From the NCBI RefSeq assembly GCF_009914755.1, contig NC_060928.1: 64,000 nt of DNA; one strand, 5' to 3'. The notes below the pieces were generated by a model, which saw only the letters and a program-made list of their open reading frames with translations, made no database searches and was not told the DNA's origin. Below, in pieces: positions 34,657 through 53,940 of the stretch (its first letter is position 1; every line of letters begins with the position of its first letter). The position numbers and the translations under genes were made by a program. This stretch comes from the human T2T-CHM13v2.0 reference genome, Homo sapiens.

Positions 34657-35433
34657 CGATGCTAGGAAGAAACTGCATCAATAACGAGCAAAATAACCAG
34701 CTAACATCATAATGACAGGATCAAATTCACACATAACAATATTAACCTTAAATGTAAATGGGCTAAATGCTCCAATTAAAAGACACAGACTGACAAACTG
34801 GATAAAGAGTCAAGACCCATCAGTGTGCTGTATTCAGGACACCCATCTCACATGCAGAGACACACAGAGGCTCAAAATAAAGGGATGGAGGAAGATCTAT
34901 GAAGAAAATGGAAAACAAAAAAAGGCAGGGGTTGCAATCCTAGTTTCTGATAAAACAGACTTTAAAACAACAAAGATCAAAAGACACAAAGAAGGCCATT
35001 ACATAATGGTAAAGGGATCAATTCAACAAGAAGAGCTAACTGTCTTAAATATATATGCACCCAATACAGGAGCACCCAGGTTCATAAAGCAAGTCCTTAG
35101 AGACCTACAAAGAGACTTAGACTCCCACACAATAATAATGGAAGACTTTAACACCCCACTGTCAACATTAGACAGATCAACGAGACAGAAAGTTAACAAG
35201 GATATCCAGGAATTGAACTCAGCTCTGCAACAAGTGGACCTAATAGACATCTGCAGAATGCTCCACCCCAAATCAACAGAATATACATTCTTCTCAGCAC
35301 CACATCACACTTATTCCAAAATTGACCACAGAGTTGGAAGTAAAGCACTTCTCAGCAAATGTAAAAGAACAGAAATTATAACAAACTGTCTCTCAGACCA
35401 CAGTGCAATCAAACTAGAACTCAGGATTAAGAA
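34657..35433 (+). repeat. Left arm of 777-bp perfect inverted repeat
   Basis: No mismatch to the reverse complement of 53164-53940 in line-by-line comparison. Confidence 0.95.
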
Positions 35434-38400
35434 ACTCACTCAAAACTGCTCAACTACATGGAACCTGAACAACCTGCTCCTGAATGACTACTGGGTACAT
35501 AAGGAAATGAAGGCAGAAATAAAGATGTTCTTTGAAACCAACGAGAACAAAGACACAACATACCAGAATCTCTGGGACACATTTAAAGCAGTGGGTAGAG
35601 GGAAATTTATAGCACTAAATGCCCACAAGAGAAAGCGGCAAAGATCTAAAATTGACACCCTAACATCAAAATTAAAAGAACTAGAGAAGCAAGAGCAAAC
35701 ACATTCAAAAGCTAGCAGAAGGCAAGAAATAACTAAGATCAGAGAAGAACTGAAGGAGATAGAGACACAAAAAAACCCTTCAAAAAAATCAATGAATCCA
35801 GGAGCTGGTCTTTTGAAAAGATCAAGAAAATTGATAGACCGCTAGCAAGACTAATGAAGAAAAGAGAGAAGAATCAAATAGATGCAATAAAAAACGATAA
35901 AGGAGATATCACCACTGATCCCACAGAAATACAAACTACCATCAGAGAATACTATAAACACCTCTACGCAAATAAACTAGAAAATCTAGAAGAAATGGCT
36001 AAATTCCTGGACACATACACCCTCCCAAGACTAAACCAGGAAGAAGTTGAATCCCTTAATAGACCAATAACAGGCTCTGAAATTGAGGCAATAATTAATA
36101 GCCTACCAACCAAAAAAAGTCCAGGACCAGATGGATTCACAGCCGAATTCTACCAGAGGTACAAGAAGGAGCTCATAACCAATCCTTCTGAAACTATTCC
36201 AATCAATAGAAAAAGAAGAAATCCTCCCTAACTCATTTTATGAGGCCATCATCATCCTGATACTAAAGCCTGGAAAAGACACAACAAAAAAAGAGAATTT
36301 TAGACCAATATCCCTGATGAACATCAATGCAAAAATCATGAATAAAATACTGGCAAACCAAATCCACCAGCACATCAAAAAGCTTATCCACCATGATCAA
36401 GTGGGCTTCATCCCTGGGATGCAAGTCTGGTTCAACATAGGCAAATCAATAAACGTAATCCAGCATATAAACAGAACCAAAGAAAAAAACCACAGGATTA
36501 TCTCAATAGATGCAGAAGAGGCCTTTGACAAAATTCAACAGCCCTTCATGCTAAAAACTCTCAAGAAATTAGGTATTGATAGGCCGTATCTTAAAATAAT
36601 AAGAGCTATTTATAACAAACCCACAGCCAATATCATACTGAATGGGTGAAAACTGGAAGCATTCCCTTTGAAAACTGGCACAAGACAGGTTGCCCTCTCT
36701 CACCACTCCTATTCAGCATAGTGTTGGAAGTTCTGGCCAGGGCAATCAGGCAGGAGAAATCAATAAAGGGTATTCAATTAGGAAAAGAGGAAGTCAAATT
36801 GTCCCTGTTTGCAGATGACATGATTGTATATTTAGAAAAGCCCATCATCTCAGCCCAAAATCTCCTTAAGCTGATAAGCAACTTCAGCAAAGTCTCAGGA
36901 TACAAAATCAATGTGCAAAAATCACAAGCATTCTTATACACCAATAACAGACAGAGAGCCATATCATGAGTGAACTCCCATTCACAATTGCTTCAAAGAG
37001 AATAAAATACCTAGGAATCCAACTTACAAGGGATGTGAAGAACCTCTTCAAGGAGAACTACAAACCACTGCTCAACGAAATAAAAGAGGACACAAACAAA
37101 TGGAAGAACATTCCATGCTCATGGATAGGAAGAATCAATATTGTGAAAATGGCGATACTGACCAAGGTAATTTATACATTCAATGCCATCCCCATCAAGC
37201 TACCAATGACTTTCTTCACAGAATTCAAAAAAAACTACTTTAAAGTTCATGTGAAACGAAAAAAGCGCCTGCATTGCCAAGACAATCCTAAGCCAAAAGA
37301 AGAAAGCTAGAGGCATCATGCTACCTGACTTCAAACTTTACTACAAGCCTCCAGTAACCAAAACCACATGGTACTGGTACCAAAACACAGATATAGACCA
37401 ATGGAACAGAAGAGAGCCATCAGAAATAATATCACACATCTACAACCATCTGATCTTTGACAAACCTGACAAAAACAAGAAATGGGGAAAGGATTCCCTA
37501 TTTAATAAATGGTGCTGGGAAAACCGGCTAGCCATATGTAGAAAGTTGAAACTGGATCCCTTCCTTACACCTTATACAAAAATTAATTCAAGATGGATTA
37601 AAGACTTCAATGTTAGACCTAAAACCATAAAAACCCTAGAAGAAAACCTAGGCAATACCATTCAGGACATAGGCATGGGCAAGGACTTCATGTCTAAAAC
37701 ATCAAAAGCAATGGCAACAAAAGCCAAAATTCACAAATTGGATCTAATTAAATTAAAGAGCTTCTGCACAGTGAAAGAAACTACCATCAGAGTGAACAGG
37801 CAACCTACAGAATGGGAGAAAATTTTTGCAATCTACTCATCTGACAAAGGGCTAATATCCAGAATCTACAAAGAACTCAAACAAATTTACAAGAAAAAAC
37901 AACCGCATCAAAAAGTGGCCAAAGGATATGAACAGCCACTTCTCAAAGAAGACATTTATGCAGCCAACAGACACATGAAAAAATGTTCATCATCACTGGC
38001 CATCAGAGAAATGCAAATCAAAACCAAGATGAGATAACATCTCACACCAGTTAGAATGGCGATCATTAAAAAGTCAGGAAACAATAGGTGCTGGAGAGGA
38101 TTTCGAGAAATAGGAACACTTTTACACTGTTGGTGGCACTGTAAACTAGTTCAACCATTGTGGAAGACAGTGTGGCAATTCCTCAAGGATCTAGAACTAG
38201 AAATACCATTTGACCCAGCAATCCCATTACTGGGTATATACCCAAAGGATTATAAATCATGCTGCTATCAAGGCACATTCACATATATGTTTACTGCGGC
38301 ACTATTCACAATAGCAAAGACTTGGAATCAATCCAAATGTCCATCAGTGATAGACTGGATTAAGAAAATGTGGCACATACCCCATGGAATACTATGCAGC

Positions 38401-38523
38401 TATAAAAAAGGATGAGTTCACATCCTTTGTAGAGACGTGGATGAAGCTGGAAACCATCATTCTCAGTAAACTATCACAAGGACAAAAAACCAAACACCGC
38501 ATGTTCTCACTCATAGGTGGGAA
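34712..38523 (+). pseudogene. L1 ORF2: L1 ORF2p remnant (endonuclease, reverse transcriptase, C-terminus), several frameshifts
   Basis: [19 protein letters not shown] start, SDH motif, [11 protein letters not shown] motif; broken into about 8 ORF pieces. Confidence 0.96.
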
Positions 38524-53000: not shown

Positions 53001-53885
53001 ACCCACTGCCTTAAATGTGTCCCAGAGATTCTGGTATGTTGTGTCTTTGTTCTCGTTGGTTTCAAAGAACATCTTGATTTCTGACTTCATTTCGTTATGA
53101 ACCCCATAGTCATTCAGGAGCAGGTTGTTCAGATTCTATGCAGTTGAGCGGTTTTCAGTGAGATTCTTAATCCTGAGTTCTAGTTTGATTGCACTGTGGT
53201 CTGAGAGACAGTTTGTTATAATTTCTGTTCTTTTACATTTGCTGAGAAGTGCTTTACTTCCAACTCTGTGGTCAATTTTGGAATAAGTGTGATGTGGTGC
53301 TGAGAAGAATGTATATTCTGTTGATTTGGGGTGGAGCATTCTGCAGATGTCTATTAGGTCCACTTGTTGCAGAGCTGAGTTCAATTCCTGGATATCCTTG
53401 TTAACTTTCTGTCTCGTTGATCTGTCTAATGTTGACAGTGGGGTGTTAAAGTCTTCCATTATTATTGTGTGGGAGTCTAAGTCTCTTTGTAGGTCTCTAA
53501 GGACTTGCTTTATGAACCTGGGTGCTCCTGTATTGGGTGCATATATATTTAAGACAGTTAGCTCTTCTTGTTGAATTGATCCCTTTACCATTATGTAATG
53601 GCCTTCTTTGTGTCTTTTGATCTTTGTTGTTTTAAAGTCTGTTTTATCAGAAACTAGGATTGCAACCCCTGCCTTTTTTTGTTTTCCATTTTCTTCATAG
53701 ATCTTCCTCCATCCCTTTATTTTGAGCCTCTGTGTGTCTCTGCATGTGAGATGGGTGTCCTGAATACAGCACACTGATGGGTCTTGACTCTTTATCCAGT
53801 TTGTCAGTCTGTGTCTTTTAATTGGAGCATTTAGCCCATTTACATTTAAGGTTAATATTGTTATGTGTGAATTTGATCCTGTCAT
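50075..53885 (-). pseudogene. L1 ORF2: L1 ORF2p remnant; first 249 codons (endonuclease domain) open, then stop
   Basis: [10 protein letters not shown]...[22 protein letters not shown]; later pieces [26 protein letters not shown]. Confidence 0.96.
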
Positions 53886-53940
53886 TATGATGTTAGCTGG
53901 TTATTTTGCTCGTTATTGATGCAGTTTCTTCCTAGCATCG
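53164..53940 (-). repeat. Right arm of 777-bp perfect inverted repeat
   Basis: Reverse complement identical to 34657-35433. Confidence 0.95.

What the first reader, a model, noticed from the sequence alone, without database searches (positions are those of the whole stretch)
34657..53940. 777-bp perfectly identical tract shared by two otherwise diverged, inverted full-length L1s
Seen: 34657-35433 is base-for-base the reverse complement of 53164-53940. The edges are sharp: a mismatch at 34656/53941, and 12 mismatches in the 88 bp after 35433. The two elements have different TSDs, so they are independent insertions, and both have decayed ORFs. Established: dead L1PA4-age copies diverge by several percent, so hundreds of bases without a difference need recent sequence exchange. 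Inference: recent intrachromosomal gene conversion between inverted L1s 17.7 kb apart (fold-back pairing), or the scar of repeated inversion crossovers.
Basis: partly seen in the sequence, partly recalled or inferred. Interest (0 to 1): 0.82.

Follow-up and report, generated by a model that had tools for sequence, protein, structure and literature searches.

The report
Gene-conversion tract between two inverted L1s
Two old, dead L1 retrotransposons that inserted separately and head-to-head in an STPG2 intron share one 777-base stretch of perfect identity, a clean but ordinary example of one repeat copy overwriting part of its neighbour.

Summary
Window 34657-35433 is the exact reverse complement of 53164-53940 (777 of 777). 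It lies inside two full-length inverted L1s that are otherwise about 92-93% identical. The next longest perfect run between them is 105 bases. In 20,000 shuffles of their differences the longest run never passed 214. None of 3,160 pairs of other L1 copies reached 777 over the same region; the maximum was 470.

Each L1 has its own pair of target-site duplications, so they are independent insertions and no net inversion is present. The tract carries 21 derived variants that are rare or absent in 80 other copies. The best third copy among the 40 of 6,103 genome candidates that were scored is 96% identical.

The best explanation is a recent non-crossover, non-allelic gene conversion of 558-777 bases. 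It erased roughly 40-50 differences and is probably under about 4 million years old.

Donor and acceptor could not be told apart. No second assembly or raw reads were available. Repeated inversion crossovers do not explain the tract, because they swap segments rather than making them identical. This is a new member of a known kind, of modest interest.

The parts
32571..32586 (+). 5' target-site duplication of L1-A (AGAATCTATCAATCAG)
   Evidence: exact 16-mer found only twice in the window, none in 100 shuffles.
32587..38727 (+). L1-A, a full-length L1PA-type element on the + strand with decayed ORFs
   Evidence: Searches show the 5' end GGGGGGTGG.. and the poly(A) from 38728; 32 stop-to-stop ORFs of 60 aa or more, the longest sense ORF 382 aa; 6,103 first-look relatives in the genome.
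38728..38822 (+). A-rich tail plus about 60 bases of other sequence between the first poly(A) and the 3' duplication (possible short 3' transduction)
   Evidence: read directly; not followed up.
38823..38838 (+). 3' target-site duplication of L1-A
34657..35433 (+). Converted tract, copy in L1-A. It covers the end of the inter-ORF spacer, the ORF2 start and the whole endonuclease domain.
   Evidence: 777 of 777. Pfam Exo_endo_phos, E 9.7e-14, aa 15-234 of the translation of 34700-35842; 21 shared derived variants and no private ones.
53164..53940 (-). Converted tract, copy in L1-B
49849..55989 (-). L1-B, a full-length L1PA-type element on the - strand with decayed ORFs
   Evidence: ends; longest sense ORFs 254 and 245 aa.
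55990..56005 (-). 5' target-site duplication of L1-B (A-rich, imperfect)
49835..49848 (-). 3' target-site duplication of L1-B; it differs from the 5' copy by a 2-base indel
38839..49834 (.). About 11 kb of spacer between the two L1s. This is the segment that would flip if the pair recombined with crossover.
   Evidence: Coordinates. Orientation is inferred to be ancestral from the intact duplication pairs.

Best explanation
A single recent non-allelic (ectopic, interlocus) gene conversion without crossover. A break or gap in one of the two inverted L1s was repaired using the other L1, 17.7 kb away on the same chromosome, as template. Between 558 and 777 bases of the donor, including the donor's own accumulated mutations, replaced the corresponding stretch of the acceptor. 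Shown: the identity, its sharp edges, the independent origin of the two elements, the private variants in the tract, and the absence of a net inversion. Inferred: the repair mechanism (synthesis-dependent strand annealing or gap repair giving one continuous patch), germline origin, and timing (most likely after the human-chimpanzee split). Not resolved: which copy was the donor.
For: (1) 777 of 777 identity against about 6.7-8.8% differing columns elsewhere in the pair. P(run >= 777) is about 1e-21 at the ORF2 background and still about 2e-5 at an assumed 2% divergence. The maximum in 20,000 shuffles was 214. (2) Empirical control over the same 2.3 kb. The longest perfect run of A or B against 80 other copies is 130. 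Among 3,160 pairs of other copies the median is 94, the 95th percentile 142 and the maximum 470, and that maximum is a chr5 pair probably inside a segmental duplication. (3) The tract is not simply a conserved stretch. It differs from the majority of 80 other copies at 21 sites, most carried by 0-8 of the 80, and every one is shared by A and B. The best third copy among the 40 scored genome candidates is 96% over the tract and 96% over a 101-base piece holding 6 of these variants. (4) In both 777-base flanks the partner is no closer than unlinked copies: 92% and 94%, ranking 24th and 15th among the rows listed. (5) The insertions are independent and there has been no net inversion, because each L1 lies between its own duplication pair. 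(6) The kind of event is documented: L1-templated repair and a 377-base intrachromosomal L1 conversion (PMC1920257, passages read), Alu-Alu conversion favoured by proximity (PMC6598467 and PMC8230782, passages read), and abundant interlocus conversion in T2T-era assemblies (PMC10172114, passages read).
Against: Only one assembly of one haplotype was available, with no reads, no second human haplotype and no ape orthologue. Non-reciprocity, direction, age and reality outside this assembly are therefore untested. The pair's background identity (about 92-94%) is lower than that of typical recombining L1 pairs. L1 pairs at deletion and duplication breakpoints are enriched only at 95-96% identity or more (PMC4344489). 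Inversion-flanking L1 pairs have a median identity of 97.2%, although 21 of 22 are above 90% (preprint 10.1101/2021.12.20.472354). Only 325 conversion events were called in 66.1 Mb of duplications more than 10% diverged (PMC10172114). Before the event the longest shared perfect block was probably only about 100 bases. No match to the recalled 13-base recombination-hotspot motif lies in or near either L1.
Confidence: 0.85

Rival explanations
1. Assembly or polishing artefact: reads from one L1 were used to correct the other over about 0.8 kb, so the true copies differ inside the tract.
For: No call could test this, because only the assembled sequence was available. Repeats are where such errors occur, and the edges of the tract are sharp.
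Against: The copies differ at about 7% of positions on both sides of the tract. Each 6-kb element sits in unique flanks, so reads of 15-20 kb (recalled for this assembly) should place unambiguously. The tract is one uninterrupted block rather than scattered corrected sites.
Confidence: 0.05
2. The conversion is real but arose mitotically in the source cell line or tissue rather than in the human germline, so it is private to this sample.
For: Zero differences fits an age of zero. Mitotic break repair can use ectopic L1 templates, as reported for cell culture in a study cited in PMC1920257 (Tremblay et al. 2000, not read here).
Against: The germline lineage had up to about 3-4 million years to produce such an event, against a short clonal history. 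Nothing in the sequence points to a somatic origin.
Confidence: 0.05
3. Replication-based template switching between the inverted arms (fork stalling, copying from the partner arm, then switching back) produced the tract, rather than recombinational break repair.
For: The outcome would be identical: one continuous templated patch with no rearrangement of the flanks.
Against: Such events often leave microhomology junctions, small insertions or inverted segments. The tract joins seamlessly in register at both ends. The sequence cannot otherwise separate the two mechanisms.
Confidence: 0.07
4. Scar of repeated inversion and re-inversion by crossovers at different points in the L1 pair.
For: Inverted L1 pairs of this size and spacing do mediate inversions (PMC3961182, HsInv0341, an L1PA3 pair; preprint 10.1101/2021.12.20.472354, 22 L1-flanked inversions). 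The ratio of A-private to B-private changes flips across the tract, from 35:18 on the left to 7:21 in the 423 bases on the right (post hoc Fisher P 0.0015).
Against: Two crossovers swap the segment between them reciprocally and do not make the copies identical, so a conversion step is still required. Both duplication pairs are intact. The asymmetry is post hoc, and the heterogeneity test over 8 segments gives only P 0.013.
Confidence: 0.02
5. Chance or selective conservation of the endonuclease-coding stretch.
For: The tract coincides with the ORF2 endonuclease domain.
Against: Both elements are dead. The tract contains a stop before ORF2 and 21 derived changes. Other copies are only 96% or less identical to it. 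Shuffles and 3,160 control pairs never reach 777.
Confidence: 0.005

Closest known systems
Interlocus (non-allelic) gene conversion between segmental-duplication paralogues in human long-read assemblies (PMC10172114)
   Same: Templated, apparently one-way copying between paralogous sequences on one chromosome, recognised by a block of donor-type variants.
   Different: The substrates here are two independent retrotransposon insertions at about 92-94% identity, not duplicated segments. The tract is 0.56-0.78 kb, against an average of 6.26 kb in that callset, which used 1-kb windows and assessed segmental duplications; the passages read do not say whether dispersed repeat pairs were covered.
Alu-Alu gene conversion between neighbouring elements (PMC8230782; Aleshin and Zhi 2010 as described in PMC6598467)
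   Same: Non-allelic conversion between dispersed transposable-element copies that spreads non-diagnostic private mutations. It is favoured by proximity, with elevated rates at under 10 kb according to PMC6598467.
   Different: These are L1s, not Alus. The tract is longer than a whole Alu. The copies are 17.7 kb apart and inverted. Direction cannot be read from subfamily changes, because the variable sites among reference copies are mostly CpG decay.
L1-templated break repair and intrachromosomal L1 conversion (PMC1920257, locus NCLI34, 377 bases; Tremblay et al. 2000, seen only as a citation there)
   Same: An L1 sequence used as the template to patch another L1 on the same chromosome.
   Different: Those cases were found at unusual insertion loci or in engineered cell-culture breaks. 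This one lies between two ordinary fixed full-length elements and leaves no structural change.
Inversions by recombination between inverted L1 pairs (PMC3961182, HsInv0341; preprint 10.1101/2021.12.20.472354)
   Same: The architecture is the same: inverted L1 arms of about 6 kb flanking 10-20 kb.
   Different: No crossover product is present here, because each L1 keeps its own duplication pair. This is the non-crossover outcome. The arms are also less alike than the median inversion-flanking L1 pair (97.2%).

Membership tests
Non-allelic (interlocus) gene-conversion tract | The two copies are distinct loci of independent origin, not one duplicated segment | tested here: met
   Each element has its own target-site duplications. 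Homology stops at the L1 ends.
Non-allelic (interlocus) gene-conversion tract | A block of identity far longer than the flanking divergence allows, with sharp edges | tested here: met
   777 bases against a next-best run of 105. The shuffle maximum was 214 of 20,000. None of 3,160 control pairs reached 777.
Non-allelic (interlocus) gene-conversion tract | The block carries private mutations of one copy that are now present in both | tested here: met
   21 shared derived sites and no private ones in the tract. The best third genomic copy scored is 96%.
Non-allelic (interlocus) gene-conversion tract | Transfer is non-reciprocal, with donor unchanged and acceptor overwritten, as shown by an outgroup or an unconverted haplotype | not testable with these tools
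   No second human haplotype or ape orthologue was available. The subfamily signal is absent.
Non-allelic (interlocus) gene-conversion tract | The sequence is real in the sample, confirmed by reads or an independent assembly | not testable with these tools
   Only the assembled genome was held.
Full-length primate L1 (LINE-1) element | About 6 kb with a 5'UTR start, ORF2 endonuclease, an A-rich 3' end, target-site duplications and thousands of relatives | tested here: met
   ends, tails; endonuclease domain; duplication; 6,103 first-look candidates. The reverse-transcriptase and ORF1 domains were not scanned.
   No repeat-family library was available. Private load is about 3% per copy, plus about 1% shared, measured against the majority of the reference copies. 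With recalled rates this suggests very roughly 20-25 million years.
Inversion by recombination between inverted repeats | Chimeric arms, with the 5' duplication of one element paired with the 3' duplication of the other | tested here: not met
   Both copies of the L1-A duplication flank L1-A, and the L1-B duplications flank L1-B.

The most novel reading that the evidence does not exclude
The pair is a long-lived exchange hotspot rather than the site of one accident. Outside the main tract, A and B share 39 derived variants where parallel mutation at non-CpG sites would give fewer than one (my own back-of-envelope estimate, made for the two 777-base flanks only and run in no call). These variants are densest at 36211-36565 and include an 81-base run with 5 of them that no other scored genomic copy matches above 96%. 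The ratio of private mutations also flips across the tract. On this reading the two dead L1s have been evolving in concert by repeated short exchanges. The new 777-base perfect inverted homology would then make the 17.7-kb STPG2-intron segment (the length between the two tract copies) prone to recurrent inversion that is polymorphic in people.
Probability: 0.15. Interest if true: 0.5.

Novelty: new member of a known kind. Interest (0 to 1): 0.3.

Why it matters
This is an unusually clean, single-locus example of ectopic conversion. It operated between dispersed L1 copies that were only about 93% alike and probably shared no perfect block longer than about 100 bases. The event turned a poor recombination substrate into a 777-base perfect inverted repeat, above the few-hundred-base threshold (recalled) for efficient homologous recombination. 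That could raise the chance of inversion of an intronic STPG2 segment. Events like this also distort divergence-based dating of repeats and can mislead read mapping. No exon lies in the window, so no functional effect is expected. The kind of event is already well documented.

Tried and rejected
Donor direction was tried in four ways, and none was decisive.
- Overlap of best-hit lists between the tract and the flanks hinted at B, but the hint disappeared once 80 copies were aligned.
- Private-mutation load does not discriminate. The tract has 21 derived sites in 777 bases. Private plus shared load in the flanks is 44 (left) and 21 (right) for A, and 27 and 35 for B, the one both-differ site left out.
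- Subfamily-type variable sites among the references turned out to be mostly recurrent CpG decay.
- The strong-to-weak versus weak-to-strong spectrum shows no bias signal.

A second tract at the 105-base run 35862-35966 was rejected, because other copies match it at 98-99%.

The cluster of 9 B-private changes in the 88 bases after the edge was examined as a possible repair scar or third-copy patch. The scan statistic gives P 0.10, the spectrum is mixed, and no other scored copy exceeds 93%. It was not pursued.

The recombination-hotspot 13-mer (recalled motif) has 3 matches in the window, none within 3 kb of either L1.

Literature on this locus found nothing relevant. 'STPG2' plus 'inversion' returned 4 papers, none about it. 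'chr4' and '4q22' have no hits in the main text of four inversion papers. Their supplementary tables were not seen, so a listed inversion here cannot be excluded.

The 5' 1.3 kb therefore has no reference-based site classification.

Other steps that gave nothing:
- A first self-BLAST of the window returned nothing useful because of its filter and was replaced by an exact-match scan.
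Full report
**What is there.** The window holds two full-length L1 elements in opposite orientation inside an STPG2 intron.
- L1-A lies on the + strand, from 32587 to a poly(A) starting at 38728. It is flanked by the exact 16-base duplication AGAATCTATCAATCAG at 32571-32586 and 38823-38838. That motif occurs nowhere else in the window and never in 100 shuffles.
- L1-B lies on the - strand, from 55989 down to about 49849. It is flanked by an imperfect A-rich duplication.
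- Homology between the two stops at the element ends. They are therefore independent insertions, not arms of a duplicated segment.
- Both are dead. Stop-to-stop scanning lists 32 ORFs of at least 60 aa, both strands counted, over each element. The longest sense pieces are 382 aa (A) and 254 aa (B).

**The observation.** 34657-35433 equals the reverse complement of 53164-53940 at 777 of 777 positions. There is a mismatch immediately outside the left edge, and 12 mismatches in the first 88 bases beyond the right edge.

Over the whole elements blastn gives 92.4% identity in 6,193 columns. A global alignment gives 5,721 matches, 439 mismatches and 142 gap columns. The next longest perfect runs are 105, 90, 85 and 85 bases.

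The tract covers the end of the inter-ORF spacer, the ORF2 start and the whole endonuclease domain. Pfam Exo_endo_phos matches at E 9.7e-14, aa 15-234 of the translation of 34700-35842. Because both copies are long dead, I take this overlap to be coincidental.

**Is it more than chance?** Yes.
- Outside the tract 8.8% of columns differ, or 6.7% within 34000-38400. The chance of a 777-base run anywhere in the element is about 1e-21 at the latter rate, and still about 2e-5 at an assumed 2%.
- In 20,000 shuffles of the 475 differing columns the longest run averaged 83 and never exceeded 214.
- As an empirical control I fetched 80 other L1 copies spanning the tract and both 777-base flanks (aligned). 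The longest perfect run of A or B against any of them is 130.
- Among the 3,160 pairs of those copies the median longest run is 94, the 95th percentile 142 and the maximum 470. That maximum is between two chr5 copies 30 kb apart that probably belong to a segmental duplication.

**Is it just a conserved stretch?** No. The tract differs from the majority of the 80 copies at 21 sites, and A and B share all 21. Most are carried by 0-8 of the 80 copies. Searching the whole assembly with the tract scored 40 of 6,103 first-look candidates. Only the two window copies are 100% identical, and the next is 96%. A 101-base piece holding six of the variants also has no other match above 96%.

So the tract is one old copy's mutated sequence, now present twice, and no third donor is visible in this genome. 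In the two flanks the partner is no closer than unlinked copies. It is 92% identical and ranks 24th among the rows listed with the A-left query, and 94% and 15th with the A-right query.

**Mechanism.** The pattern is a continuous patch in perfect register, with flanks and duplications undisturbed. This is the expected product of non-crossover, non-allelic gene conversion: a lesion in one L1 repaired by copying from the other.
- The converted length lies between 558 bases (first to last shared derived site, 34793-35350) and 777 bases.
- From the private-change rates in the flanks (about 3.0% for A and 2.7% for B), roughly 40-50 differences were erased. This is inference.
The intact duplication pairs also show no net inversion.
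- Whether pairing occurred within one chromatid, between sisters or between homologues cannot be told from the sequence.
- Replication template switching would leave the same product and cannot be excluded.

**Timing.** The tract has only 3 CpGs. With recalled substitution rates of 0.5-0.6e-9 per base per year per lineage, zero differences gives a 95% upper bound of about 3.0-3.9 million years. The probability of seeing no difference after 6.5 million years is 0.002-0.006. The elements carry about 3% private change each, plus about 1% shared. The subfamily was not tested.

**Direction.** This is unresolved. Hit-list overlap first hinted that the tract resembled B's relatives, but the aligned data do not bear this out. 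Mutation load does not discriminate. The variable sites among the reference copies are mainly recurrent CpG decay, not subfamily markers.

**Loose ends.**
- Outside the tract, A and B share 39 further derived variants: 18 in the two flanks (80 references) and 21 in the 3' 2.5 kb (only 12 references). My own estimate, made for the two flanks only and run in no call, is that parallel mutation at non-CpG sites would give fewer than one.
- These variants cluster weakly: 11 adjacent pairs against 5.5 expected, P 0.009. The figure is inflated by dinucleotide events.
- One 81-base run (36265-36345) holds five of them, and no other scored copy matches it above 96%. The 105-base run's variants, by contrast, are common in the family.
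- The ratio of A-private to B-private changes flips from 35:18 left of the tract to 7:21 in the 423 bases to its right (post hoc Fisher P 0.0015; P 0.013 over eight segments).
This cluster is not significant (scan P 0.10) and was not copied from another scored L1.
- These points could mean earlier small exchanges or a shared source lineage. I leave the question open.

**Comparison with what is known.**
- Conversion between neighbouring transposable-element copies is established for Alus and is favoured by proximity (PMC6598467, PMC8230782; passages read).
- L1-templated repair and a 377-base intrachromosomal L1 conversion have been reported (PMC1920257; passages read).
- Interlocus conversion is abundant in duplicated DNA in long-read assemblies, though it was called mainly at high identity (PMC10172114; passages read).
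- Inverted L1 pairs of this size flank known inversions (PMC3961182; preprint 10.1101/2021.12.20.472354; passages read).
- L1 pairs at deletion and duplication breakpoints are enriched only at about 95-96% identity or more (PMC4344489; passages read). A conversion between arms at 92-94% is therefore at the permissive end.
- I found nothing in print on this particular locus (searches; in-text look-ups).

**Verdict.** The best explanation is a recent non-allelic gene conversion between two inverted L1s, with confidence about 0.85. The main residual doubts are an assembly artefact or a sample-private event. This is a new member of a known kind and of modest interest. Its most useful consequence is the testable prediction that the new 777-base perfect inverted homology may drive inversion of the intervening intronic segment.

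Noticed in passing
window 38728-38822: About 95 bases lie between L1-A's first poly(A) and its 3' target-site duplication. They are A-rich, with about 60 bases of other sequence ending in a second A-rich run, which may be a short 3' transduction.
   Followed up: no
window 32610-33110: The RefSeq 'enhancer' feature in the hub's table lies entirely within the 5'UTR of L1-A.
   Followed up: no
window 36211-36565 (partner 52038-52392): There is an excess of derived variants shared by A and B outside the main tract: 10 in 355 bases, including 5 in the perfect 81-base run 36265-36345. No other scored genomic copy matches that run above 96%. This could be an older exchange or a shared source lineage.
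   Followed up: partly
window 33880-34656 versus 35434-35860: The ratio of A-private to B-private changes flips across the tract, from 35:18 to 7:21. This is post hoc and of uncertain meaning.
   Followed up: partly
window 35434-35521 (partner 53076-53163): Nine B-private changes fall in the 88 bases directly after the tract edge. The spectrum is mixed, the scan statistic gives P 0.10, and no other scored L1 copy exceeds 93%.
   Followed up: yes
L022, L033, L035 (G000 C5, about 176.60, 176.62 and 178.58 Mb): These three reference L1 copies share perfect runs of 470, 335 and 235 bases with each other, far above the other control pairs. They are probably copies inside segmental duplications, or further L1-L1 exchange.
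   Followed up: no
window 17741-17805 and 19659-19723: A 65-base exact direct repeat. It is the longest exact repeat in the window that does not involve the L1 pair.
   Followed up: no
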